In this document: piece by piece, positions 25,548-62,499 of the stretch
Numbering within the stretch: position 1 is the first letter of the stretch
How the letters are laid out: each line of letters opens with the position of its first letter
From: the human T2T-CHM13v2.0 reference genome, Homo sapiens
Length of the DNA: 64,000 nucleotides
Assembly (NCBI RefSeq): GCF_009914755.1
Contig: NC_060933.1
Reading direction: 5' to 3' (one strand)
Made by a program: the position numbers and the translations under genes
Notes under the pieces: generated by a model
The model's database searches: none
What the model saw: only the letters and a program-made list of their open reading frames with translations
Told to the model about the DNA's origin: nothing

Positions 25548-27634
25548 CAGGGGTGCTGTTTTCACTTGCTACAAATTGTTCTCATACCTTTGCATTAAAG
25601 AAACTCTTGTTAATCTCTCATTTTGTTTCCAGTGCATTTTAACTCTACAAAATTGTCATAAAGTCTCTACTTAGGAAACCTTATAACTTAAAGGACCACT
25701 CAGAATCCTTAAAATATTTTTGTTTGTTAAATTTCCTGAGCTGACTCATTGCTGATTGGGTATAGAAACTTTAGCTTTTTTTTTTTTTTTTTTTTTTTCA
25801 CTTGATCTATCTTGGAACTTCCTTGCCCCAGCTAGATTTTTATCTCCTTAGGAACTATGGAAAGAAAGCATATCTAAAAATACTTCTTTAAAGTTCTCTG
25901 ATACCTTCTGTTTGTTAATATGATAATGTTGTACATAAATAGCTATAAAATATACTGTTAAACTTAAAAGATCTGGGAAAGAGCTTTTGAACACCCCCAA
26001 CCTTCAACACACACATGCACACCCACACGTACATACAATACCAGATACAAAGAAGGTGCTAACTCAATATTTATTAAATTTATTAAAGGGCTTCTCTTAG
26101 AATCTCAGAGGAAAGCAAATGCTGTGAAGCCGGGCTGCCTGGAAGTACCTTTATTTGAAATCTTTAACAAGATCTTAAAAGAGTAATGACAGTACTGTGT
26201 CTAATGAAAAATGAGTATTTGATTCTAACATATTCAACATAAGAATTTCATAATATATATTTGATCTGCAATATAAATGAGAGTTTCTATATCTTATTCA
26301 TTCATTTATTGTTTTATTCATTCAACCATTGTTGAGTGCCCACAATGTGCCAGCCATGCATCTAGGCACGTGGCCAGCATGGTCAATAACAACATGTGCC
26401 TGCCTTCATGGGGCTTACAGTCTATAGGAAAGACAGTCAATCAAACAAGTGGTTTACAATGAAGTATGATGAATGTTGTCACAGGACACACTAGATACAT
26501 TAGGAGCACATAGCAGAGTAACAGAATTATGTGGGGCAGAAAGATGACAAGGGTCACACATGGGGCTGGAGGCCTTAGACCTTGGAGGTCCTATCCAAAG
26601 CAAGGCTGACAAAAAAGCTGCCCCAAACTGCACTGACCATTGGAAGGTAAGGCCTGCATGGAGGAGGTGCTGCTGTGGTCTGGCCAATGCCAACAGGCAG
26701 GTCACTTCCTTGGCCTTTGGGAAAGGATGGCAATGATGGAGAAGGTCAAGAAGATCACACCAGCCGTGCCTCCAATCACCATGCCCAGGACGCTGCCGTG
26801 CAACTGCATGGCCTGACAGCGCTCCCATTTAGAAGAAAGCATGTCCAGAGATGCACCTGAGGGAAAAGGACATGAAGAGAGTGTGGGAACTCCCAGGCCT
26901 CAGGTGCCTCCTAGCAACACTCATCTCCACAGCAATAAAAATGGCAAACGCTCACTGAGCAGGTCCACGTGGTGCCTGGTCCCATTTCAAGTGCTGTATA
27001 TGGACCAACTAATTTAACCCTTCAACAACTTTTGAGGTGGAGGCTATTACTTGGCCATTCTCATCATCTTCATCTTACAGGAAGTTTAAATAATTTGCTC
27101 AAGGTCCCATTGTTAGTAAGCATTTCACACTTGAAATCTAATCCCAAGAGGTATGCCTCCAGATCCAGGCTTCTCAGCCACCTAGGATTCAGGAGGATGG
27201 TCTGAGACACTTAAAGGAATACATTGCCTGACACTGGCTAAGAATACAAGCTACAAAGGAAATTCCCCAGATACAGTCTGACTTAGAGCATCAGTGGTAG
27301 CTTGAAAACGTCTAAATAATATTAAATAAAATGTTACTGTAAGGTTAGTGTGTACTGTCACTATCTCACAAGGTTGCCCTGAAGTTCACCTGAGATAATG
27401 AGGACACTGTACCTATCAAGGTATTTGACACAGAGTAAGCACATAATGGCCAGCCCTTAGTTTTGTTTCTTAATGTTATCTGGTATAAAGACGAATTAAT
27501 CTCATAACCAAGGCATATAACTTGTAGTGTCTCATCCATACCTTTGTAAAAATTCCAGCCTTTGTTTCAAACATTCCCACTAGAAGGTCTACTCAGCAGA
27601 ATTCTACAAGGCAGAGTGAAACAATCAGAAGTCA

Positions 27635-28008
<374 letters not shown>

Positions 28009-28364
28009 TTACCTTCCAAGTCCTCATCTCTATCCTGAGAATTGACTTCTTAGAAATCAGTGAGTAATAGCAAGTTTATTTCATTTTTTTTCTGACCCAG
28101 TCCCCTCCAAACACAACTTCGTAATATCCCCTACTGTTATCTTAGAAAAACTTATTCTGCCAACTCTCAGCTGCAGGTTTCTAGGAGAGGAATAGTTTGG
28201 CTGAGTAGAGGCTGACATACAAGTGGCAACCCTGGCCTCCCTTAGCCTGGGAAGGATGAAGCGTGTTGGGGGCACACAATGGAATCTGGCATCTAAGGAC
28301 CTGTCAGGCAAAGATATGAAGACCCATGGCTTTGGAGCCCAGAAACAGATGGGCCTTCCCCAGT

Positions 28365-29435
28365 AAAAGGAGCCAGAGGGCTTCTTGGAAGAGTGATTGA
28401 TTCTATGGGTGGGGCAGGAAATATAAAAGATGAGCCTAGAGCATGCTATGGTGCCGGAAAGTAACATTGTGTTCATAAAATCTGATGTTGAAAGATCACA
28501 GGAGCCAACCTGGAAGAGCTCCCAAAGGCCAAAGCTGGGACAATAGAAGCAACAAAATAAATTATGAAATCATTGCAACAGAGCCCACTGAATCAATGTT
28601 TATGATTCCTTTGTGATATACATAAACAATCGCATAAACAAATTAACGGGGTGAAGGGGCCATTCTTCTTTACAGAAGAATTCTAATTAATGAATGTGAA
28701 GGACATAGGAAATCAACATTAGAAGATCCCAGTGGTGAGTATTGCAGCAGGTTGTATCAATAGATGCTGAAATTAGCATGTGAGGATTTGAGGAAAAGCA
28801 GGATGTCTCAATGGTCTTGAACTATCTCTCCCAAGATATGTATCAATTACAGAGGGAGAAATGGTAACTCTTCAGTGGAGAGGCCTGGTGGACATGCTGT
28901 TGGCCAGATGATGAAGGTTGACATCACCAGTAATGACATGTATCGGCATCATGTACCTGCTCACATGATGCAACAAGAAGGCACAGCACATATTTACTAA
29001 TCTTGCCACAAATGTGAAACCTCAATTTAATCATGAGAGAACAAGATGAACCAAAAAAAAATCCCTAACCAGTAATCTTCAAAAGTGTCAAGGTAATGAA
29101 AGACAAGAAAGAACTGAGGAATTGTCCCAGATTGGAGGGGATTAGGAGACAGGAGACATAAAAACTAAATGTAACGTGAGATCCGGAATTGGATCCTGAA
29201 ATAGAAAAAGAACATTAGTGGGAGAACTGGGAAGAGCCGAATAAGGCCTGTAATTTATTTACTAGCATTCTACCAATGTTCATTTCTTGGCTATGCTAAT
29301 TGTACTACGGTTTGTGTAATATGCCAACATTACGGAAAGCAGGGTGAATGGTATAGAGAAAGCCTCTGTAGTATTTTCGCAAGGTATCTGTAAGTCTAAA
29401 ATTATTTCAAAGCAAAAGCTACAAAAAGAAAAAAA
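28365..29435 (+). mobile_element. Old L1M (L1MC/MD-like) 3' region
   Basis: Ends with TGTAAGTCTAAAATTATTTCAAA followed by an A-rich tail. Confidence 0.6.
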
Positions 29436-31647
29436 AGGAGACTAAAAAGAACTCAGAAGTAATGTAAATTTTTGAGGTAGGCAGAATAGCTCCTACATCT
29501 GCTACTGTTCAAATGGAACTGTTGCTTCTGTCATCACATACCTCCTTTTGTGAAACAGTTTTCAGGGTTTTATGCAAGCAAACATTATAAAAAGAACTAT
29601 TAAAGTTCTTTTTAAATATTCAAATTTAAATATAGCAAACTGTACTGCTTTTTAATATTTAAACATTAAATATAGCAAACTGTGCTGCCAGACAGACCTA
29701 GATGCAAGTCCCAGCTTCAGCATTTTCCATCTGGGTACATTTTAGATAAATTACTTAACCTTTCTAAGCCTCAACTTCTTGATACACCAAATGGGGATAA
29801 GGAGAGCCCTTATGTCACAGGTGGCAGTGAGAATGAATTTAGATCATGCGTGTAAGATGCTCAGGAGACCACATGATGCATAACAAGGGGTCAGAAATAT
29901 CAGGTGTTCTTACTACTATTATTGAAAACATAACTTTAATAATAGTGCAGTGTAAATGACAGACTGTATAACTAATAATCATTAGGAGCTAATAATAACA
30001 TCTGTGTAGTCAGCAAAGATTTAAGCTTGGTCTTGAGACCCACTGTCATGGAGTAGAAAGTCCCTAGGCTAGAAGCCATCTTGGATGTTGTTAGAGTTAG
30101 AAATTCCAACAACATCCAAGATGCTGTTGACAATACCCCAGAGGAGGAAAAGGGGTGAAAGTCAAGAGACAAGGAGACCTGGGACGCCTCTGTCCCGGCA
30201 GCGTAAGCCCATGAATCCAGGGCACACCTTTGTAGAGTCAAGGAAAACCGCATCCAGCTGACCATCTGAGGTAGTCTTCGCCCTACTCTGCAAACAGCAG
30301 CCTTTACCAGGCATAAGCATGCACACGGCCCAGGTCTGCTGGCCTGCCTGTCTCCCCAGCCACAGAGCCTACCTGCACCTCGCCACCCGCTTCAGGTTCA
30401 CACAGATGCCATCATTTTGGCAAGGGTTTGGGTCACATGGGTCTCTGAAGTACTGTGGCCAGTTATGGTCCTCCAGGGGGCCTGTGTTCTTCACTGACGG
30501 CTTCTGTCAGCTGGGCTGCCCCTGGCTGAGGCTGACAGGTACGGCTTCCTCTAACATGGCCTTTCCTGAACCTTCTTTGGAGACCTGCTGCTCCTGGCCT
30601 TGGAGAATGAGGCCTTGGGGGCTCAGTCTTTTGCCTTTAGTGGGAACTTCAGTCTGGCTGAGGTGGGTGATATCTTCAGGAAATAGAGGGTCACGAGGAA
30701 GATCCAGGATTAGTAACTGACTACAGCGAACTCCCACTTCTGGTGAAAGTTCCCCAGCCTGATTCTATCTCTAGTGATATGTCACCCCCAGTGACATGGA
30801 AAAGTGGCTTTGAATCCAGCTGATTCCCACGGTACTAGCTAGTTTTATTTTAAGGTAATCCAGACACATTTTTATTTATTGAATTTGCAAAATGAAGCAT
30901 AAAGTTAGCATGGATAGACTGATGGAAACTAAATTGAAATCAGTGAACTGTTACCTCTGATAAAATTTTCAAAAAGATGACACTAAAATTTCAGTTTCTT
31001 TCAGGGACAGTTAAAATAAAGATGTGAGTCCTTGACCAATTGAAGAAAATGTGGTTCTCCTACAACACATTTTTTTTAACCTCATCCCCACCCTCCATGT
31101 GTGCTTTAAAATCAGGATAAAATCAGTAGAGTGCCAAGAGCATAGGATTATTTACTCAGGAAGACCAAGAAAAGTACCTTCAAAGTCCACAAACATGATG
31201 AGGTCATCATTTTTCAGGAAACTCCTCCTTTTCAGCATTTGGTGGGAGATGAAACCACTCCAGCCAAAGTCAATGCTTCTAAAACAATTACAGTCAGCAT
31301 GATAGGTTCCCACCCTGGACGGCCTGTCCCAGATGACAGTGTCATTTGTCGCTGCAAAATTGTAGGTAACATAAAATCACATTACCTCTTTAGACTTCAC
31401 TTTCCAGTTTGTCTTTTATGAGGATACAGGGCTTTGTGAATCAGAAAAAAATAAATAAATAAAAATAAAAATAAAAAAAGTGTTGGAAAAAAATTAAGCT
31501 ATTTACTCTTTCCAGGAGAATTGCAATTCAGAATTGAAAGATGGGAGAGGCAGAGAATCACAGCTCTGAGTGATCAGTTGTCTGCTACTGCGTGACTTTT
31601 TTAATGAAAAGAGAGGGACAGCTATGGCTTCTTTCTTCTGAGGCTTA

Positions 31648-31947
<300 letters not shown>

Positions 31948-34900
31948 TTATTTCATGAACATAGTGATATTGAGTGCTATTTTAGGAGTAAGTACATTAG
32001 CTCTGCACAGAGCCTAGCAAGTTCCGAGTATTTGATAAATGATTAGCAGTATCTGTTTCCTCAATCACAATGAGATCAATGAGGCAGGGATCACCTGATT
32101 CACTTGTATTGTAAGTACCTAGCACAGAGTTTGGCACATGGTAAGCCCTCAACAGATGTTTGATGAGTGAATTTAGGAAAGGGAAGGAGGATGTGATGGC
32201 ATTGAAAATCTTAACTTGAAACTCCAACACGCCTATGTTATCGGTATTCCCAGGCGGAAAATGTGAGGAGAACGTTACTCTTTCTTGCACCACAGAATCA
32301 CATCTGTGGGCCTCTCTGGTTCGAGGGGCAGTTCTTATTTATGCCAACACCACCCACCTGGAGATATGTGCAACTTGGAGGTAGTGAACACCAAACTTAA
32401 GGACATCCTGTTCCTGACATCAGGTCCTGGTCGAAGATGGTAATTATCACCTGTCTGTTTTCTACCGGCCACTCCAGGATAGCATCATTCTCCCCACTGC
32501 ACATGTAAAAAGCAAGTCTCAAATAGCCAGAGCTTTCTCTGCCATGGGGGTATAAAGTTAACCCAAAACCGCATCCCTCTGAATTGTAGAATCGAGGGCT
32601 CTGAAGCTTGTCCCCTTCGCTGGTGTTCTCAAGGACCTGGGAGAAATTCTGGACTGTCCAGACCCCTGTGGGGCAGGGGGTTTCTGTCAAGAGTGATGTC
32701 ATCCAGGTAAATTCCCCCAGTTGAGTTCCGAGGGTCGCCTTTTGTGCCCTGGAAAAGTTAGCGAAATTCCTGTTCCTCTTTGAGTACCACATGGGCAATT
32801 TTCCAATTATGGTCATCATCTCCTGAGGACAGAGAACAAGGCTGGTGAGAATTGTGGCCAACACTGAATGAGTACTTATTATGAGTGTGGCACAGTGCCA
32901 TGTGCTTTCCATAAATGATCTCATTAAATCCCCACAGCAGCCCTATAAAATAGGTACTATTATGAACTGGTTAAGTAACTTTTCCAAAGTTACATATTTA
33001 ATAAGGAAAAATGGTTTTTTAAAATACTATGATTTATTTTAAAATTCACATTCAAATCTTAACCATGAATTTGTTTTCCACTATCACTATAAGAATCCAG
33101 GTTCTGAATTTCCTCCTGAGTTGGCTGGTTCAACTGTAACCCCTAATGTTAGCAATGAAAGCCCATTAGGCTGAATCGTATAAAATGAAACCGACTCCCT
33201 CTCCAACATCTAGACTTTTTTCTCTTCCTTATATTATCTGAAAGTTCAGCACGTAGGGCAGTGAAGTAAGCCAAAGAGAGTACTATTGTCTAGAAATTCA
33301 CATTCTAATAAAGATTAGGTCTACTTGCTTTTTCTCTGAGCATGAACTGGAAGTGGGACTTTTGAATTAAGAGCTGAAGAAAGATGGTGAGAAGGCTGTC
33401 CTAGAGCATGGGATCCTGGGTTGAACAGCAGAAGAAGCCAGGCAGGAGCTTGGGGGCACTGGAGAGAGGAAACTGAAAGCAGAGCAACTCAGTTCCGCAA
33501 AGAGATGCGCCTACACTGATATTTTTGCACAGGACATTCCCTAGAGTTGGGCTTGAAGAGGAGAGGAAAAATGCTTCCAAGTGGAAGTCACATTGGCTAA
33601 ACTGAGTTCCTACAGATGAGTGTCTTTTTTCCTTCTTCTGTGTCTTTTAACCAGAAATCCACTGACAGAACTATACTTTCCCTGAAACAGAAAAGACCTT
33701 TAATCTCCCTTTGTTTTCAGACCATTCTCTCTAAGGACAACTTCAAGGGACAGGTGTACCAATGTTATGTTTCCTAGGGTGGAGCTGATTATGGCCTGTG
33801 TGGTTAGGTTACATGGGAACATAGGAGAGAGGTAGAGAAGGCACACGACCACCTCTGTAACATACAAATCTAGGTAGCTGCCATCTCCTGGGGAGAGCAC
33901 TGCAACCTACTGGAAGACACATGGACTTGAAGGGTAATAGGTGCCAGAAAGTCTAGGAATAGGAACAGAGATACAGCATTTGAACTATTTATCCAGCAGG
34001 TTATAGATCACGGGAATTCTGTCAAGAGAATAGGATTCCGTTCCTGCTGATGAGTACCTGCTTTGTTTTTTCTTAATATAGGATGTCCAAATGAGGTTGA
34101 GATGGGGGAATGTGGCACTGGGAAGGAGACCCAAGAGGGTCACATAAAGAACACTAAGTGATATTCAACTAACCTTTTTGAAAAGTTTCATTGACAAACC
34201 AGTATCAGAACAGACTACTTTAAAAATCCTTTCATACAGTGTTCCCAGGGACCGTACACAGGCATACTCTGAATTCAATGAAACACAAAGCACAGCAGTG
34301 TAAGAAACTAAATTAATCATGGGATGTTTGCTTGATTTTATGCTTTGAAGTAACACTGAGCTTTAGATGAAAGTGAGTGATAATAGGTCCCATCAATATT
34401 ATTGAAACTCTAACTCATTTTCTCATTAAATATTTACAATCCTTGGTAACATAACACATCCTCAACTCTTAAAGAATATCTACCTGTCATCCTTTCATCA
34501 TATAAACTATGATAAATTTCAACCAGAAAAGTGAACCCCTCAAAACTGTGATTTGTAGAGTTCCCAGGCAGCCCAGAGTGCCTTGGATATAGGGGATTTG
34601 GGAACCTGTTCTTACAAGTGACCTCTAAAGAAGGTTTCTCCTTCAAGAGCAGCAGATATATAAAAAATAATTCCTTTCTCTGGACTCATTTCAACTGATA
34701 AATGCCAAGGTAGGCAGTTGGATGCTAGGATAATCTGGCCATAAATCATGATTCAGGGTTATAAACAAAGTATATGCTTTATTTTGTTGTGGTGGTGGTT
34801 CCTTCATAACTAGGAAAAGGGAGACAAGCTTTCTTACTTTTCAACAAAAAGTTTCTCTATCTATACTCATTTACATGCTGACCTTCTTATATAAATACAC

Positions 34901-35054
34901 AAAGTGACTCTTAGGAACATGTAAGTGATTATAGGAAGTTAACATATACCAATGACTTATTTGCCACCAACTTTATAAGTAGGCTTCTAGTTACTGCAGC
35001 ATATTAAATAATGGTATCATTTGTTTTTCTGAAACATGCAAAACACTGGGTCAA

Positions 35055-35130
35055 TTTTTTTTTTTTAAGATGGTGTCTTGCTCTGTCGCCAGGCTGCAGA
35101 GCAGTGATGCAATCTTGGCTCACTGCAACC
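35055..35130 (-). mobile_element. Truncated Alu right-arm fragment at a block junction
   Basis: Poly-T...GCTCACTGCAACC, then an abrupt switch to GC-rich sequence. Confidence 0.8.
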
Positions 35131-35860
35131 ACATTGCTACCACTGTAGCCGAGCTGTGGTCTCTGATGTCACCACCAACTGCAGCGAGGTAAGCCACGGA
35201 GGCGCAGGCTCTGGCTCCAGCCTCCAGCATGCAGCGGTGTCTCTTCCTTCTCCTCGTCTTCCAGCCCGGCAGGAGAAGCTCCCGCTGCTAGCCTCCCTCC
35301 TACCGCTCCGTCACCAACACCACCAACAGGGAGGCAGCGCCCCAGGCTCCAGGCTCCAGGCTCCAGGCGGTGAAAACTAATGGACCCTTCTAGTTCTCTA
35401 ACCCAGGTACCTAGCAGCTGGACACACCGACACAGAAGACCCAAAAATGACGCACCACTTCCTCAGCATGCTTTATATACTGAAGTTACGGATCCTGGAC
35501 TACATGTTCTGATTGGATGAGAGAAAAACCTCTAGGCCTACTCTGATTGGACTTTATTTTCATGCTGTGATTGGTTATCTTAAGACTTGCTCTTATGCAA
35601 TCAGAACATGAAGTCTAGGAACCGGCATGCGCATAACCTCCGTATATAAATGATGCTGAAGAGCCGTTACGGTTTTTTTTTTTTTTTTTTTTTTAGGGTT
35701 CGGTGTTTTACTGTTGAGCTGCTCAGTGCCCAGCTTAGAGGACCAGGAAAAGGAGTCACCGGCCGTATGCTGGAGGCTTGAGACACGGCACAGAGGCGCA
35801 GCTCGCCTCGCTATGGTTGGTGGTGGCAGTGGAGATTGCGATTGCAGCGCGGCTGGAAGG
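35131..35860. promoter_or_regulatory. Inverted-repeat bidirectional promoter-like element flanked by divergent BAGE-exon-1-like (possibly ACRO1-related) units
   Basis: TATATAAA on - (35472-35479) and on + (35643-35650); ATTGG at 35512, 35546, 35570; NRF1-like GCATGCGCA at 35625-35633. GAGCTGCTC...GCTTAGAGGACCAGGA...CTGGAGGC resembles the BAGE 5' exon as recalled. Confidence 0.6.
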
Positions 35861-37105
35861 GTAGGAAGAGGAAAATAGTTTTGGGATAGATAGAGGGGTG
35901 GGTAAAGAGTTTGGTTATTGCCAAAGGGAAAAAAGGATAGCGAGGAGGAGAAGGCATTGCAAAAAGACGATGGGGAAAAGATGGTGGGGAAAAAAGGTTT
36001 TGGGTAGACGGAGGTGGAAAGACGGGTTGTGGAGCGGGAGTGAGGGAAGGTTTTGCAGAAAGACGGTGGATAGGAAGTTTATGGGTGGATGAAGGGGGAA
36101 AAGATGGTGGCAATTGGGGAGAGGAGAGAGTGGTGAGGTGGGGGAAATGGGCGAGCAGTAGGGAGAGAGGGTTTTGTGAAAAGACAGTGGGGAGAGAAGT
36201 TTTTGGGTAGATAGAGGAGCAGAAGAAGATAGCAAGTGGGAGAAGGAAAAAGAGGGTAACTAGCGGGAGGAAGACAAGGTTTTGCGAAAAAACAGTGGCA
36301 GAAAAGAAAGATGGTGGAGAAAAGATGGTAGGTAAAAAGTGTTTGGGTAGATGGAGGAGGGAAAGAGGGTGACAAGGAGGAGAAAGAGGGTGGCGAGAAG
36401 GGAGCAGGGAAAGAAGGTTGGGAAAAAGACGGGAAAATAGTTTGGGATAGATGCAGGGCAAAAAAAAGGGTGGCAAGCAGGATAGGGGAGAGAAGAGGAC
36501 GAGTGGGAAGAGGGGGCAGACTTTGTGAAAAGATGGGGAAATTTTGGGGGGTAGATGGGGGGAAGAGGGAGGTGAGCAGGAGTGGGGAGAAGGCTTCGAG
36601 AAAAGATGGTGGGGAAATGTTTTTGGGTAGATGGAGAAGGGAAAGAGTGGCAAGGAGGAGTAGGAGGAAAGACAATGAGGAAAACAGTTTTTGGGTAGAT
36701 AAAGGGGGAAAAGAGGGTGGTGAGCAGCAGGAGTGGGGAAAAGGCTTTGGGAAAAGACGGGGGGGAAATGTTTTTGCTTAGATGAAGGAGGAAAAGGGCA
36801 TGATGACAGCAGGAGGGGGAAAAAAGAGGGTGGCCAGGGAGAAGGGGGAAAATACGGTGGGAAAAAACGGGAGAAAGTGTTTGGGTAGATGGTTGGGGAA
36901 AAGCGTGGTGAGCGGGAGAATAGAGAAGGCTTTGCGAAATGACGCGGGGTGGGGCGGGGAGAAAACGAAATGATGGTGGGGAGATAACGGTGAAAAAGTT
37001 TGGGGGTAGATGGAGGAAGAGAAAGGGTGGTGAGAGGGAGAGGGCGAAATGCGGTCGGGAAAAGAAGGTGGGGAAATGGTGGGGGACAAAAGTTTTGGGT
37101 GGATT
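35861..37105 (+). repeat. Degenerate purine-rich (G/A) tandem repeat
   Basis: About 13 recurrences of TTTTGGGTAGATGG-like anchors at ~70-140 bp spacing; very few C on the + strand. Confidence 0.8.
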
Positions 37106-37109
37106 TTTA

Positions 37110-40100
37110 AAAATAAGATTATTTGTATTTTCACTTTTGAGTAGTTTGAGTTCTTTAGATATTTTGTGTATTAACCTCTTGCCTGATGCATAGTTTGCAA
37201 AGACTTTCTTCCATTCTCGGGTTCTGTCTTCATTATACTGATTGCTTCCTCTGCTTTGGAAAAGGTTTTAAGTTTAATGTAATTACATCTTTGCTTTCGT
37301 TGCTTGTGCTTTTGATGTCTATTTGAAAATTCCTTGTCCTAACCAATTTCATGAAGCATTTATCCTATGTTTTCTTCTCTGGTAGTTTCATAGTTTCAGG
37401 TCCTGTATTTAAATCTTTATTTTGAGTAGATTTTTGTATATGGTAAGGTAATGGCCTAGATGTATCCTTGTACATGTGGGTGTTGGGTTTTCCTAGTACA
37501 GTTTATTGAAGAGATTGTCTTTCCCGAAGGTGTGTTCTTGGGGCCTTTGTTAAAAATGAATTGACCGTAAACGCGTGAATTTATTTATGATTTCTCTATT
37601 CTGTTTCACTTGTCTATGTCTGTCTGTCTCATTCGTTCATCTCTCTTGTCTCTCCCCCGCCCCTTTTATTGATAGTACCATGCTGTTTTGATAGTACCAT
37701 CCTTACTATAAATTTGTAGTATATTTTGAAATCAGGTAGTGTGATGCCTCCAGCTTTTCTTTTTATTCCACATTCTTTTGTCTATCTGAGGTATTTTGAA
37801 CTTCCATGTGAATTTTAAGATTCTTTTTCTATTTCAGTGAAGAATGTCTTGTAATTGAACATGGATTGCATTGATTCTGTAGATCACATTGGGTGATACA
37901 CATATTTTAACATTCTTCTAGTGCATAGAGATGGGATATCTTTCCATTTACTTGTGTCTGCTTTAGTATCTTTCATCTATGTTTTATGAAGTTTTCATTT
38001 TGGGATCTCTTGCCTTTTTGGTTAAGTTTATTCCTAGATATCATTTTTTTTTTTGGTAATGAAATAGCTTTCTTGATTTCTTTCTTAGATATTTCACTAT
38101 TGGTGCATGGGTGTAGTATTCATTTTTATATTTTGATACTGTATCTTGGAACTTGACTAATTTATTATTTCTAGTAGGTTTTTTGTGGAATCTTTAGGGT
38201 TCTCTCTATATATGTTCATGTCACCTGGAAACAGACAATTTGACTCCTTTTTTCCAATTTGGATGCCTTTTATTGCATTCTCCTAATTGCTCTAGCTAGG
38301 ACTTCCAGTATTATGATGAACAAAAGTGGTGTAAAAGTAGCCACACTTGTTCCAGATCTTAGAGGAGAAGAGCTTTTAACTTTTCCTTATTGATTATGTT
38401 AGCTGTGGGTTTGTCATATATGGCCTTTATTGCACTGAGATATGTTCCTTCTGTACTCATGTTGTTGAGTTTTTATCATGAAGGAATGTTGACTTTTAAT
38501 TTTTTCAGCGTCTACTGAAATGATTATATGGTTTTTGTTGTTGATTTGCTGAATGTGATGTTGCATATTTATTTATTTGTGTTTATTGAATCATCCTCAT
38601 ATTCCTGGGATGAATGAAATCCACTTGATCATGGCAGATGATCTTTTTATTGCGTTGTCAAATGCAATTTTCAAGTATTTTGCTGAGGATTTCTTACACC
38701 TCTGTTCATGAGGGATATTTGCCTGTGGTTTCCTTTTTGTGTTGTGTTCTGGTCTGGTTTTTGTACCAGGGTCATGCTGTCCTCATAGAACAAGTTTCGA
38801 AGCCTTTCTTCGTCTTCATTTTATGGGGAATATTTTGAGTAAAATACATATTAGCTCTTTTAAAAATGTTTGGTAATTCAGCAGGAAAACCATGATTCTT
38901 GTGTTTTTCTTTGCCAGGAGACTTTTTATGACTGCTTTAATTGCATTACTCATTATTGGTCTGTTCAGGTTTTTTATTTTTATTTTTTATCATTCTATCT
39001 TGGGAATTCGTTATGTGTCTAGAAATGTATTCACTTCCAGATTTTTCAATTTGTTTGTGATGTTTTTAGTAATCTCTTAATGCTTCGTATTTCTGGGTTA
39101 CCAGTTGTAATGCCTTCTTTATGACTTTGTTTTCTTTTTCTTATCTAACTTCATCTAGTTAAAACTCGTCAATTTTGATTTTTTTTTAAAAACACCCCAG
39201 CTTTTGTTTCATTGACTTTTTGTATTTTTTGTTTCTATTTTTAAAATTTCTTCTCTAATCTTTATGGTATTTTTTCTGCGAATTCTAGCATTTGATTGTT
39301 CCTGTTTTTCTCATTACTGGAGGTGTACTGTCAGGCTATTTGAGATCTTCCTACTTTTCTGATGCAGGCATTTATAGCTATACACTTTTCCTCTTAGAAT
39401 TGCCTTTGGTGCATCCCACAGGATTTGTTATGTTGTGTTTCTATTCTTACTTGTTTCAATAAATATTTAATTTCCCTTGTGTTTTCTTCGTTTCTTTTAT
39501 TGGTTGTTCATGGGTGTGTATTTTAATTTCCATGTATTTGTACAGTTTTTAAAGTTCTATCTGTTATTGATTTTTAATACTATTCGACTGTGGTCACAAA
39601 AGATACTTGATATGAATTCAGTTTTTAAAAATGTGTTGGGTGACCGAGGCGGGATCACGAGGTCAGGAGATCGAGACCATCCTGGCTAACACGGTGAAAC
39701 TCCGTCTCTACTAAAAATACAAAAAATTAGCCGGGCGTGGTGGCCGGCTCCTCCGGAGGCTGAAGCAGGAGAATGGCGTCAACCCGGGAGGCGGAGCTTG
39801 CAGTGAGCCGAGATAGTGCCACTGCACTCCAGCCTGGGAGACAGAGACTCCACCTCAAAAAAAAAAAAAAAAGTGTTGTGACTTGTTTTTTGGCCTAACA
39901 CAGTCTGTCCTGTAGAATAATCGATGTGCCACTCAGTAGAATGAGCATTGTGCAGTTGCAGAGTGAAAAGCTGTGTAAATGTCTGTTAGGTCCATTCTGT
40001 ATAGAGTACAGTTTAACTGATGATGTTTTGTTGTCTGGATGATCTGTCCGTTCGCGATAGTGGGGTGTTGATTACGGTGGAGTGTTGAGGTACTCTATTA

Positions 40101-52164: not shown

Positions 52165-52368
52165 TATTATGTCTTAAAAGTGCTTGCATCGTCACCTAGA
52201 TTATTTTTTATCTTTCAATGTGAGTTTTTATTGGTTTATATGTTGTTTGTTTTCTTTTTAGGAAGCCATCATTCTTTAGAGGGCAATGACCAAACAGTAC
52301 CAGCAGAAATTGAAGTACCAGCAGAAGGCTAAGAAGGTTAGGAGAAAAAGACATTTTGTATTTTACTG

Positions 52369-52658
52369 TTTTTTTCTTTTTTTTTTTTTAGACGAAGTCT
52401 TGCTCTGTCACCAGGCTAGAGTGCAGTGGCACGATCTCGGCTCACTGCAACCTCTGATTCCCTGGTTCAAGTGATTCTCCTGCCTCAGCCTCCTAAGTAG
52501 CTGGGATTATAGGCACAGACCACCACATCCAGCTATTTTTTGTATTTTTGGTAGAGACCAGGGTTTCACCATGTTGGCCAGGATGGTCTCAATCTTTTGA
52601 CCTCCTGATCCACCCACCTCGGCCTCCCAACATGCTGGGATTACAGATGTGGGCGCTT
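52369..52658 (-). mobile_element. AluS between GTF2I-like exon 11 and exon 2
   Basis: Full reverse-strand dimer; no evident TSD. Confidence 0.85.
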
Positions 52659-53867
52659 GGCCACCTCCTCTTGGGAGAAATGCATTGATTCTGGTTGCCA
52701 CGTGGATTTATTTTGGGAGTGATATTCATCTAACTTCATGGAAATAATACTAGATAGAAAGTTAGCGGATGAATTCTCTATCTGATGAGAGTTTTGGGCA
52801 AATCGAATACCAAGTTACCAAGTTTTGTTTTTTTCTCTGATGCAAAGAAACAATTTGCCAGCCAGTGAAAAACTCTCACAGCTCTGGATGTGAGTTTAGG
52901 ATACTGGATTTCTACCATTCAATTTCTTACTACTTTTCTTGCACAGGGATCATGGCACAAGCTGCAGTTTCCACCCTGCCCATTGAAGATGAGGAGTCCA
53001 TGGAAGATGAGGAGTCCGTTGAAGATGAGTCTGTTGAAGATGAGTCCGCAGAGAACAGGATGGTGGTGACATTGCTCATATCAGCTCTTGAGTCCATGGT
53101 GAGACCTTCTGTTCTAACATTCTGTAATTGGGTAGTACTGGGTGGTAGATAAGGTTGATTTGTTTTTGTAGAATTTATAATTTTATGATTTATAGTTCTA
53201 ATGAGTAGATCTTTTTCTTGAATAGTAATTATGGTCAAACACTTCTGACCAAATGTGCCATGTTGTCCAGCCTGGTCTCAAAATTCGGGGCTCAAGAGAC
53301 CTGCCCACCTTGGCCTCCCAAAATACTGGGATTACAGGTGTAAGCCCCTGAATCTGGCCAGATATTTTTCTTTTTATGGCTGAATAATACTCTGTGTATG
53401 TATATATTACATTTTCTTTATCCATTCACCTACTGATGGGCATTAGGGTTGGTTCTACCTTTTGGCCACTGTGAATAATGCTGCTGTTAAACGGGTGTAC
53501 AAATACCTGTTTGAGTCCCTGCTCTCAGTTATTTTGGGTATATACACTTAAAGGGTGTTGGTGGATCATATAATTCTGTGCTTAATATTTTTAAGGAGCT
53601 GCTAAACCATTTTCCACAGTGGGCTGTACCATTTTACATTCCAAAAGGCAATGCATACAGCTTCCAATTTCTCTATAGCATTGCTGACAGTTAATATTTT
53701 CTGTTTATGTATTGTATTTTTATAGTGTTTGAAATTAATCTGAGGGTTTTTGCTGATACCAAAATATTAGGAAAGGTTTTCCAAAAATAATACTGCTTAT
53801 TATAAAGAATTTTATGTGTTACTTGATGCCCTGTGATCCATTTTCTCAGTAAGAAGAGGAACTTCTT

Positions 53868-61924: not shown

Positions 61925-62027
61925 AGGGAGCGTCTTCCGGGAGCCCGGCAGCAACCGCGGTGCAGGCGCGCGCCGCCAGGGAGCGTCTTCTGGGAGCCCG
62001 GCAGCAACTGCCGTGCAGGCGCGCGCC
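61925..62027 (+). repeat. 53-bp tandem duplication in the proximal promoter
   Basis: AGGGAGCGTCTTC(C/T)GGGAGCCCGGCAGCAAC...GTGCAGGCGCGCGCC x2. Confidence 0.9.
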
Positions 62028-62280
62028 CAACGGCTTTGCGAGGCTCACTCGGTCTGAGAGGTCGGAGGCTGCGAGTGTCGCTGCTGAAGGCTGTGGTGGA
62101 CCGGGCTGGATCGCGGATTGTGGAGTAGATTATAGATTTGAAATAGCGGAGTTGGGGTTGGATCGGGGCTTTGGGGTTGGATAGGGGATTTGGGGCTGGG
62201 TCGGCCGGGGTCGGGGAGGGGGGTGGTGAAAAGGTGACAGGGAGCTGCCCTCGCTCAAGAGCCGGTGGTTGGGGGTCTGA

Positions 62281-62499
<219 letters not shown>

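What the first reader, a model, noticed from the sequence alone, without database searches (positions are those of the whole stretch)
35131..35860. Palindromic bidirectional promoter placed between promoterless gene fragments that point away from it on both sides
Seen: the core is an inverted duplication. The left arm CAGCATGCTTTATATACTGAAGTTA...TCCTGGACTACATGTTCTGATTGGAT (~35464-35518) mirrors the right arm ATGCAATCAGAACATGAAGTCTAGGA...TAACCTCCGTATATAAATGATGCTG (~35595-35658). This gives an outward-facing TATATAAA on each strand, with CCAAT boxes between them and related GC-rich units on both sides. Knowledge (recalled): these units resemble exon 1 of the BAGE cancer-testis genes, which arose by juxtaposing such a 5' element with duplicated KMT2C/MLL3 exons. 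Inference: the - TATA faces the MEP1A pseudo-exons, which keep splice sites and AATAAA. The + TATA faces the PARG and GTF2I pseudo-exons and ANKRD20A. One cassette could therefore drive two divergent chimeric transcripts, as a BAGE-like gene-birth module.
Basis: partly seen in the sequence, partly recalled or inferred. Interest (0 to 1): 0.8.

Follow-up and report, generated by a model that had tools for sequence, protein, structure and literature searches.

The report
Truncated BAGE-type palindromic promoter copy
This is a worn copy of an old two-faced promoter, the same module that heads the BAGE cancer-testis genes, sitting at a duplication seam on chromosome 9; one face is annotated as starting a non-coding RNA, and the other points at a dead meprin gene copy with no sign of use.

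Summary
The imperfect palindrome at 35131-35873 is real and far beyond chance. It is one copy of a low-copy pericentromeric duplicon family: at least 38 copies were fetched from CHM13. Published BAGE primers place the BAGE 5' module inside this family. The positional equivalent of BAGE exon 1 is the window's LEFT arm read on the minus strand, not the right arm. The ancestral core reads TATA, octamer, 3 ATTGG, 3 CCAAT, octamer, TATA. It matches the family majority at 91.5% against 76-77% in the flanks. The window copy is decayed: a 62-bp deletion removed two CCAAT boxes, a third is now GCAAT, and both octamers are gone. At 35130/35131 the module is fused to a chr6 (MEP1A-side) duplicon carrying only MATH and EGF pseudo-exons in minus sense, which parallels the chr7q36 segment lying downstream of BAGE. 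On the plus strand, two RefSeq model first exons start inside the element (35595 and 35673, the latter 30 nt after TATATAAA) and splice from 35860 to downstream pseudo-exons. Nothing supports minus-strand use. Verdict: a new paralog of a known gene-birth module. The structure is confirmed and plus-strand activity is plausible, but bidirectional activity is unproven.

The parts
35055..35130 (.). End of the chr6 (MEP1A-side) duplicon: a truncated intronic Alu fragment
   Evidence: Window 34140-35130 matches chr6:46667700-46668717 at 93% and the match stops at 35130. Alignment A2 shows the chr6 Alu continuing where the window switches source.
35130..35131 (.). Duplicon junction between MEP1A-derived sequence and the palindrome duplicon, with 3-bp microhomology (ACC)
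   Evidence: A2. All 5 chr9 pericentromeric copies share it. Other family members continue at least 1.5 kb further left.
35131..35310 (-). Outer GC-rich unit of the left arm, a second copy of the exon-like unit. Its outer end, which in other copies carries a GGGTAGGTGAGT donor-like site, is cut off.
   Evidence: 71-73% identical to BAGE loci.
35302..35303 (-). Candidate minus-strand splice donor GAGCG|GTAGGA (the exon would end at 35304). It mirrors the annotated right-arm donor.
   Evidence: Read from the sequence. The motif CCTACCGCTC is conserved in all 8 rows of A1. Use is inferred, not shown.
35311..35449 (-). Inner unit of the left arm, the positional equivalent of BAGE exon 1 (BAGE +1 at about 35434, +32 primer at about 35377-35402, BS99f at about 35310-35324)
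   Evidence: 60-62% identical to BAGE loci.
35472..35479 (-). Minus-strand TATATAAA
   Evidence: TTTATATA is present in 22 of 38 family copies and in 0 of 5 BAGE-clade copies.
35510..35574 (+). Three NF-Y-type boxes (C/G)TGATTGG at 35510-35516, 35544-35550 and 35568-35574, spaced 34 and 24 bp
   Evidence: Nearly invariant across 38 copies.
35575..35596 (+). Asymmetric central spacer TTATCTTAAGACTTGCTCTTAT, which fixes the orientation of the module
   Evidence: It has the same orientation in reverse-complemented BAGE loci.
35597..35612 (+). Degenerate fourth box (GCAAT instead of CCAAT) and the site of the 62-bp deletion that removed two further CCAAT boxes
35643..35650 (+). Plus-strand TATATAAA
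   Evidence: The RefSeq alternative first exon starts at 35673, 30 nt downstream (hub table).
35673..35694 (+). T22 run, expanded in this lineage. With AG at 35695-35696 it forms the acceptor of the internal exon that starts at 35697.
   Evidence: Other copies carry only TTTTCAG|G here.
35595..35860 (+). Right-arm exon of lncRNA LOC102724431: first-exon variants from 35595 and 35673, internal variant from 35697, donor G|GTAGGA after 35860
   Evidence: Hub RefSeq table. No AG precedes 35595 or 35673, so both are first exons.
35861..37100 (+). G-rich, strongly skewed flank that belongs to the family duplicon
   Evidence: GC skew +0.63 to +0.83. It is homologous in family copies and lies on the non-BAGE side of BAGE loci.
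26057..32824 (-). MEP1AP3: a 5'-truncated meprin A alpha copy (MATH to EGF to 3' end) with acceptor at 32824 and AATAAA near 26070-26085
   Evidence: Hub table.

Best explanation
The element is a truncated, partly decayed copy of an ancient palindromic promoter module carried by a pericentromeric duplicon family. The BAGE genes' promoter and exon 1 belong to the same family. In the ancestral module each arm, read outward from a 22-bp asymmetric centre, carried three CCAAT boxes, an octamer, a TATA box about 8 bp further out, a first-exon-like GC-rich unit of about 150 nt, and a GT donor.

In the window, a duplicated block whose edge falls inside the left arm (35131) was joined to a 5'-truncated MEP1A copy. 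The core has lost two CCAAT boxes, a third by mutation, and both octamers.

Most likely mode of action (inferred): NF-Y at the three remaining boxes plus TBP at the + TATA give a weak promoter, probably silenced by methylation. It starts some LOC102724431 transcripts at about 35673. The right arm more often serves as an internal exon (35697-35860) for transcripts that start at 27958. The minus arm keeps a TATA, a BAGE-exon-1-like unit and a donor-like site facing the MEP1AP3 acceptor 2.5 kb away, but it is probably silent or nearly so in this copy.

Shown: the palindrome, family membership, BAGE paralogy and orientation, the junction, core conservation, and the decay. Taken from annotation: the plus-strand starts and splices. 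Inferred: factor binding, methylation control, and minus-strand silence.
For: Palindrome.

Family: 136 matches in CHM13; 38 copies aligned.

BAGE link: primers from PMC3757347 hit 11 loci exactly with 0 hits for the control pattern. The second primer lies 67 nt away at the same 11 loci. Collinear alignment A1 holds with BAGE loci reverse-complemented. The family's left flank is BAGE intron 1. A chr7:153.55 Mb segment at 95% lies 12-22 kb downstream of the chr21 BAGE-type start, in sense.

Core conservation (23 non-redundant rows): 91.5% match to majority over 254 columns, against 76.8% and 75.8% in the flanks. Restricted to A/T-majority columns the figures are 91.7% against 77.7% and 79.0%, so CpG decay alone does not explain the difference.

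The arms are older than the family: a left arm matches its own right arm at 79.4% and other copies' right arms at 79.2%, but left matches left at 86.1% (16 copies).

Decay of the window copy: 3 ATTGG and 0 CCAAT, whereas 17 of 38 copies have 3+3. It has no octamer, whereas 18 of 38 copies have one. It folds at -43 kcal/mol against -89.5 for the chr17 copy.

Junction.

Plus-strand use: the hub RefSeq table. 35673 lies 30 nt after the TATA, and no AG precedes 35595 or 35673.

GC skew flips sign at the palindrome in 4 of 4 copies examined and in the window, as expected for divergent outward transcription.

BAGE loci are reported as hypermethylated in normal tissue and hypomethylated in cancers (PMC3757347, abstract).
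Against: The RefSeq transcripts are predicted models. A start that coincides exactly with the first T of a T22 run (35673) could be an alignment or model artefact, and 35595 lies upstream of the TATA.

No expression, CAGE, methylation or ChIP data could be consulted. The RefSeq functional-element list for the window has no entry in the element.

Core conservation could be inflated, because copies were found and anchored by similarity to the core and flank alignment is harder.

Taking '+32' and '99' as distances from the BAGE start is my reading of the primer names. The primary BAGE papers were not held.

The minus arm is structurally as complete as the plus arm (TATA, unit, donor-like site), so calling it silent rests only on the absence of annotation.
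Confidence: 0.5

Rival explanations
1. One reading: the cassette is an active bidirectional promoter. Besides the plus-strand lncRNA, its minus TATA starts a transcript near 35435-35450 that splices from the left arm (donor at about 35304) to the MEP1AP3 acceptor at 32824 and ends at the MEP1A AATAAA. That would be a BAGE-like chimeric gene, probably only in germline or demethylated cells.
For: The left arm is the positional equivalent of the arm BAGE uses. It keeps TATATAAA, which BAGE copies lack. It has a conserved donor-like GAGCG|GTAGGA. An intact acceptor and polyA signals lie in the MEP1A fragment, in sense. All three surviving NF-Y boxes lie nearer the minus TATA. The architecture parallels BAGE with its chr7-derived segment. 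A paralog, MEP1AP4, is listed among expressed prognostic genes in TCGA liver cancer (PMC9486098, Table 1 passage read); this is weak and prone to multi-mapping.
Against: No minus-strand transcript is annotated: MEP1AP3 is a 'Curated Genomic' pseudogene without a transcript (hub table). The junction removed the family's outer donor-like site. The left unit has no ATG, and the ATGs just inside the MEP1A exon are out of the MATH frame (my reading). The region is probably heterochromatic and methylated, by analogy with BAGE loci.
Confidence: 0.2
2. Inert relic: neither TATA fires in this copy. The right arm is only an exonised piece (T-run acceptor plus inherited donor) of a lncRNA driven from the repeat-derived start at 27958. 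The two model first exons inside the element are artefacts of incomplete read support.
For: The main RefSeq model starts at 27958 and uses 35697-35860 as an internal exon (hub table). The core has lost half its CCAAT boxes and both octamers. 35673 is exactly the first base of a T22 run. 35595 is not TATA-positioned. No RefSeq functional element lies here.
Against: Two of five RefSeq models independently begin inside the element. One is at the canonical 30-nt distance from a consensus TATATAAA. Three consensus NF-Y boxes remain.
Confidence: 0.25
3. The palindrome matters structurally rather than as a promoter: it extrudes as a cruciform or hairpin and acts as a breakage or recombination hotspot that seeds duplicon junctions.
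For: Intact copies fold very strongly (-89.5 kcal/mol, z -15.5). The window's block edge (35131) and the chr2:95.45 copy's edge lie within about 10-20 bp of each other but have different outside flanks.
Against: The two edges are more simply explained by one ancestral block inserted at two places; the chr2 copy is the window clade's relative. The edges lie about 340 bp from the TATA, outside the strongly pairing core. The pattern of conservation follows transcription-factor motifs (CCAAT, octamer, TATA) at fixed spacing, not stem pairing: the arms are only 79% alike.
Confidence: 0.05

Closest known systems
BAGE 5' module (promoter plus exon 1 of the BAGE cancer-testis genes, formed by juxtacentromeric reshuffling with MLL3/KMT2C fragments; Ruault et al. 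2003, known to me only as cited in PMC4041455 and PMC3084872)
   Same: Same duplicon family with collinear homology over the whole 35100-35900 region. Same palindromic CCAAT core. A foreign 3' gene fragment lies in sense downstream of the same (left) arm: chr7q36-derived for BAGE, chr6 MEP1A-derived here. An ANKRD20A-exon-1-like sequence lies on the opposite side and points away, in 9 of 11 BAGE loci at 6-8 kb and in the window at 26 kb.
   Different: Separate clade. Only 60-73% identical in the arms and 82-85% in the core. BAGE primers do not match the window copy. The window keeps the left TATA that BAGE lost, but lost 62 bp of core. The family's left flank (BAGE intron 1, at least 1.5 kb) is missing here, so the foreign fragment abuts the arm directly. 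No transcript is known from that arm.
NF-Y CCAAT-array bidirectional promoters, e.g. Mrps12/Sarsm (PMC1802594; title and abstract seen in the search listing)
   Same: A short region (under 250 bp) with an array of CCAAT boxes between two outward-facing starts.
   Different: Those promoters are single-copy, typically TATA-less CpG-island promoters of housekeeping genes (recalled). This one is a true inverted duplication with a TATA on each side, is multi-copy in segmental duplications, and its factor binding is untested.
Divergent histone H2A/H2B promoters (recalled knowledge, no call)
   Same: The ancestral arms show CCAAT boxes, an octamer (ATTTGCAT/ATGCAAAT) about 8 bp inside a TATA box, and divergent arrangement.
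   Different: No similarity to histone loci appeared in the genome search and there is no histone coding sequence. The window copy has no octamer. This is a resemblance of layout only.

Membership tests
BAGE loci (the set co-amplified by the published COBRA primers) | Sequence homology to the BAGE promoter/exon 1 region | tested here: met
   Collinear alignment A1. 82-85% identical in the core and 60-73% in the arms.
BAGE loci (the set co-amplified by the published COBRA primers) | Matches BAGE.BS+32f and BS99f; close identity among loci (heterochromatic gene families with >90% identity, PMC3084872 passage) | tested here: not met
   No hit at the window locus with up to 2 mismatches. The BAGE clade is separate, support 100/100.
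BAGE loci (the set co-amplified by the published COBRA primers) | MLL3/KMT2C-derived sequence downstream of exon 1 | tested here: not met
   The window has chr6 MEP1A-derived sequence instead. The chr21 BAGE-type locus has chr7:153.55 Mb sequence at 95%.
BAGE loci (the set co-amplified by the published COBRA primers) | Cancer/testis-restricted expression; hypermethylated in normal tissue | not testable with these tools
   No expression or methylation data were available.
Bidirectional (divergent) promoter | Two opposite-strand transcription starts within about 1 kb | tested here: inconclusive
   Plus-strand first exons at 35595 and 35673 are RefSeq predicted models (hub table). No minus-strand start is annotated. 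The structural parts exist for both strands.
Bidirectional (divergent) promoter | Shared core elements (CCAAT/NF-Y) between the starts | tested here: met
   Three consensus TGATTGG lie within 65 bp, between two outward TATATAAA boxes 164 bp apart. They are conserved across the family. Binding itself was not tested.
Segmental-duplication mosaic junction | Abrupt switch between sequences whose closest relatives lie at different genomic loci | tested here: met
   chr6:46.67 Mb (93%) up to 35130; the palindrome family from 35131.
ACRO1 or other satellite | Head-to-tail tandem array | tested here: not met
   TRF on 34500-39500 finds only three micro-arrays of 27-49 bp. No Rfam family matched: best E 0.17, 14.5 bits against a 40-bit gathering score. 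No tRNA. Dfam itself could not be searched.

The most novel reading that the evidence does not exclude
The palindromic TATA-octamer-3xCCAAT | 3xCCAAT-octamer-TATA module is a selectively maintained, portable divergent promoter. As its duplicon spread through human pericentromeres, it repeatedly captured foreign 3' gene fragments behind the same arm: KMT2C gave BAGE, MEP1A gave MEP1AP3 and its paralogs, and a chr5:170.49 Mb segment sits at the chr9:44.2 and chr5:181.84 BAGE-type loci. On this reading it is a recurrent gene-birth engine, BAGE is only the known success, and the MEP1AP3 fusion is a germline- or tumour-restricted chimeric transcript not yet annotated.
Probability: 0.2. Interest if true: 0.7.

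Novelty: new member of a known kind. Interest (0 to 1): 0.45.

Why it matters
BAGE is a textbook case of gene birth by pericentromeric reshuffling. This window shows a second, independent fusion of the same promoter arm to a different gene fragment. The BAGE promoter turns out to be one half of an older palindrome whose CCAAT/octamer/TATA core is much better conserved than its flanks across dozens of copies. If the core is under selection, these heterochromatic duplicons carry a functional regulatory module that can activate whatever lands beside it. That bears on the origin of cancer-testis genes and on aberrant transcription when pericentromeres lose methylation. If this copy is silent, it is simply another decayed paralog in a segmental-duplication mosaic.

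Tried and rejected
- Rfam and tRNA scan: nothing relevant.
- TRF: no satellite, so the ACRO1 idea is dropped.
- REP522 as a possible identity: one search listed 13 papers. I did not open any, so no description of the repeat was seen, and the lead was not pursued.
- Primary BAGE papers (Ruault 2002 and 2003; Grunau 2006): not held. Tables S1 and S2 of PMC3084872 are old .doc files and were not read. They may hold BAGE2 primers.
- My first inference of a family-wide left boundary at 35130 was wrong. It arose from using the window as query; other copies continue left.
- My idea that the window copy derives from chr9:106.72 was also dropped. That copy is the one truncated on the right at window 38005, while other members continue to at least 39600.
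- Pfam on plus-strand lncRNA exon ORFs: no hits, so there is no domain evidence for PARG or GTF2I.
- The chr9:44.2 BAGE-type locus was searched for chr7 sequence downstream. It gave chr5 matches instead (37 of 18841 candidates scored).
- Literature searches for LOC102724431, BAGE with NF-Y/CCAAT, MEP1AP and BAGE2/ANKRD20A/promoter found no description of this promoter architecture in the held library.
- Histone-promoter origin: no histone-locus match; kept only as a resemblance of layout.

Full report
**Observation.** The sequence at 35131-35873 is an imperfect inverted duplication centred near 35585.
- The repeat finder reports five arm pairs of 23-46 nt at 72-84% complementarity.
- A local alignment of the reverse-complemented left half against the right half scores 58. 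The 200 shuffles gave 19.1 +/- 2.6 (max 33); the non-inverted control scored 22 and the reversed-only control 17.
- As single-stranded DNA, 35440-35690 folds at -43 kcal/mol (z -6.9).
- Outward TATATAAA boxes lie at 35643-35650 (+) and 35479-35472 (-).
- Three NF-Y-type TGATTGG boxes lie between them at 35510, 35544 and 35568. That motif is not enriched in the window as a whole (14 seen, 13.8 expected); only the cluster is unusual.

**It is one copy of a duplicon family.** A search of the window's own genome (CHM13) gave 136 matches.
- Four copies at 96-98% lie in the chr9 pericentromere, and one at 86% lies at chr9:106.72 Mb.
- Copies at 68-84% lie on chr2, 7, 9, 10, 13, 14, 15, 17, 18, 20, 21 and 22. 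Only 40 of 73 candidates were scored, so counts are lower bounds.
- I fetched 37 further copies and aligned them with the window.
- In intact copies the core reads, left to right: TTTATATA, 8 bp, ATGCAAAT, three ATTGG, a 22-bp asymmetric spacer, three CCAAT, ATTTGCAT, about 9 bp, TATATAAA. The boxes are spaced 34/24/27/24/33 bp.
- 17 of 38 copies keep all six boxes. 18 of 38 keep an octamer on one side and 2 of 38 on both.
- The chr17:28.03 Mb copy pairs over about 320 bp per arm (score 151) and folds at -89.5 kcal/mol, z -15.5.

**Conservation.** I used 23 non-redundant rows. I dropped 15:
- nine near-duplicates (L002-5, L013, L015, L017, L018, L023);
- L036, a divergent BAGE-clade copy with a large gap in the core;
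- L032, which has an internal deletion;
- four rows with ambiguous orientation or half elements (L025, L026, L037, L038).

The TATA-to-TATA core matches the column majority at 91.5% (254 columns), against 76.8% and 75.8% in the 150-column flanks. Restricted to A/T-majority columns the figures are 91.7% against 77.7% and 79.0%, so CpG decay alone does not explain the difference. Two caveats apply: copies were found and anchored through the core, and flank alignment is harder.

Within a copy, the left arm matches its own right arm at 79.4%. That equals its match to other copies' right arms (79.2%) and is below left-versus-left (86.1%) across 16 copies. The inverted duplication therefore predates the family's spread, and the arms are not being homogenised.

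GC skew changes sign at the palindrome in all four copies examined. In the window it is -0.17 to -0.24 on the left and +0.63 to +0.83 for 1.3 kb on the right. This is the pattern expected of outward transcription from both faces.

**Link to BAGE.** PMC3757347 (Methods passage read) gives bisulfite primers BAGE.BS+32f and BAGE.BS99f.
- With converted positions written as Y, both hit the same 11 CHM13 loci exactly, 67 nt apart: chr5, chr9:44.198 Mb, chr13 x3, chr15, chr18, chr21 x3 and chr22. The first primer's control pattern gave 0 hits.
- Those loci align with window 35100-35900 over the whole length, but only when reverse-complemented (A1).
- Three things fix the orientation. The asymmetric spacer reads the same way. 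The G-rich flank homologous to window 35829-37066 lies on the side away from BAGE. The family's left flank continues for at least 1.5 kb as what would be BAGE intron 1.
- So the positional equivalent of BAGE exon 1 is the window's left arm on the minus strand. BAGE +1 aligns to about 35434, the +32 primer to about 35377-35402, and BS99f to about 35310-35324.
- Identity to BAGE loci is 82-85% in the core but only 60-73% in the arms.
- The BAGE copies form their own clade (100/100). The window sits in a 7-row clade with the other chr9 pericentromeric copies, chr9:106.72 and chr2:95.45 (100/99). This tree used 34 rows with 4 left out, and its midpoint root is for drawing only.
- BAGE copies lack the TATA on the side they use (0 of 5). 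Reading '+32' as distance from the transcription start is my inference from the primer names.
- Downstream of the chr21:10.71 Mb BAGE-type start, at 12-22 kb, the sequence matches chr7:153.55 Mb at 95%, in sense. That fits the MLL3/KMT2C origin cited in PMC4041455 (passage read). That chr7:153.55 Mb is KMT2C rests on recalled map position.

**The window copy is truncated and decayed.**
- Window 34140-35130 matches chr6:46.6677 Mb at 93% and the match stops at 35130.
- Alignment A2 shows the chr6 Alu running on where the window switches to family sequence, with ACC shared at the seam.
- All five chr9 pericentromeric copies share this seam.
- The seam removes the family's outer GGGTAGGTGAGT site.
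- The chr2:95.45 Mb relative ends within about 10-20 bp of the same point but has a different outside flank. The simplest account is a duplicated block whose edge lies in the left arm and which was inserted at two places.
- To the right the family block continues to at least 39600.
- Inside the core, the window clade (window, L002-L006) lost 62 bp between two ATCAGAACATG repeats, which removed two CCAAT boxes.
- In the five chr9 pericentromeric copies (window and L002-L005) the third box is GCAAT; it is still CCAAT at chr9:106.72.
- Both octamers are gone from all of these copies.

**Flanking fragments.**
- On the minus strand, the MEP1AP3 blocks encode MATH (E 5.5e-16), the rest of MATH, and EGF, in that order going leftwards. 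This is only the 3' part of meprin alpha (3 of 87 ORF pieces hit). The acceptor at 32824 is intact and two AATAAA lie near the annotated end.
- On the plus strand, the hub's RefSeq table gives lncRNA LOC102724431. Its listed model starts at 27958 and uses 35697-35860 as an internal exon. Other models have exons 35595-35860 and 35673-35860. No AG precedes either start, so these are first exons.
- 35673 lies 30 nt after the first T of TATATAAA. It is also the first base of a T22 run, which with AG at 35695-35696 makes the acceptor for 35697.
- The donor after 35860 (G|GTAGGA) is inherited from the family.
- Window 43600-44050 matches chr10:46.78 and 50.72 Mb at 90-91%, which is compatible with PARG by recalled position.
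- 52200-53200 gave no chr7 match among the 40 candidates scored, so GTF2I is not confirmed.

**How it most likely works.** The layout (CCAAT array, octamer, TATA, first-exon-like unit, donor, in mirror image) and its conservation point to an ancestral divergent promoter read by NF-Y, an octamer factor and TBP. That step is inference from motifs. BAGE shows that the left arm can drive a chimeric gene, and RefSeq models suggest the right arm can start transcripts here. For this copy I put:
- about 0.5 on weak plus-strand-only activity;
- 0.2 on true bidirectional activity including a MEP1AP3 chimera;
- 0.25 on an inert relic whose right arm is only an exon;
- 0.05 on a structural, recombinogenic role.

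By analogy with BAGE loci, which are hypermethylated in normal tissue and hypomethylated in cancers (PMC3757347 abstract; PMC3084872 passages), any activity is probably confined to germline or demethylated cells. The element has 30 CpG in 770 bp, o/e 0.57.

**Comparison and novelty.** The closest known thing is the BAGE 5' module. This copy is a paralog of it, not a BAGE locus: the primers do not match, the clade is separate, and there is no KMT2C part. In layout it resembles NF-Y CCAAT-array bidirectional promoters (PMC1802594, abstract in listing) and, by recall, divergent H2A/H2B promoters.

I found no description of the palindromic six-box architecture in the held library. The primary BAGE papers were not available, so it may already be in print. 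I class it as a new member of a known kind, of moderate interest.

Noticed in passing
window 35861-37100: A 1.3-kb purine-rich stretch with extreme GC skew (+0.63 to +0.83) lies just downstream of the right arm. It is conserved in family copies. The skew flips sign exactly at the palindrome, and the stretch could be R-loop-prone.
   Followed up: partly
window 61964-62498 and BAGE-type loci (e.g. chr9:44189589-44189928): A sequence like ANKRD20A2P exon 1 (77-82% over query 5-322) lies 6-8 kb from the palindrome in 9 of 11 primer-exact BAGE loci. It sits on the side opposite BAGE and points away, the same topology as in the window (26 kb). BAGE and ANKRD20A-type 5' ends were therefore neighbours in one ancestral block.
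   Followed up: partly
L048 (chr9:44200501-44210500): Downstream of the chr9:44.198 Mb BAGE-type start the sequence matches chr5 (chr5:170.49 Mb at 90% over 7 kb; chr5:181.845 Mb at 92-96%), not chr7. This suggests another, different juxtaposition behind the same arm (37 of 18841 candidates scored).
   Followed up: no
CHM13 chr5:181.84, chr15:5.48 and chr22:11.10 Mb: Primer-exact BAGE-type loci exist on chr5, chr15 and chr22 in CHM13, in addition to the chr9, 13, 18 and 21 reported in PMC3084872.
   Followed up: no
family copies L008-L038, core: Perfect octamers (ATGCAAAT/ATTTGCAT) sit about 8 bp inside each TATA at mirror positions: 18 of 38 copies have one and 2 have both. The window has none. 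The ancestral layout resembles histone H2B-type promoters (recalled).
   Followed up: partly
L007 (chr2:95.45 Mb) versus window 35131: The chr2 relative's left edge lies within about 10-20 bp of the window's junction but has an unrelated outside flank. The chr2 block is collinear with window pieces out to ANKRD20A exon 1 but spans about 90 kb instead of 27 kb.
   Followed up: partly
window 27958-28059: The main LOC102724431 model starts inside a stretch masked as repeat (27635-27983) and runs antisense through MEP1AP3. Its start is probably repeat-derived.
   Followed up: no
window 37700-39600: This stretch holds an interspersed repeat with many 68-73% matches genome-wide (chrX, 1, 11, 13, 15, 18, 22). 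It is embedded in the family duplicon.
   Followed up: no
literature: MEP1AP4, a paralog of MEP1AP3, appears in a 19-gene prognostic expression signature for TCGA liver cancer (PMC9486098, Table 1 passage). This hints that some MEP1A pseudogene copy is transcribed in tumours.
   Followed up: no
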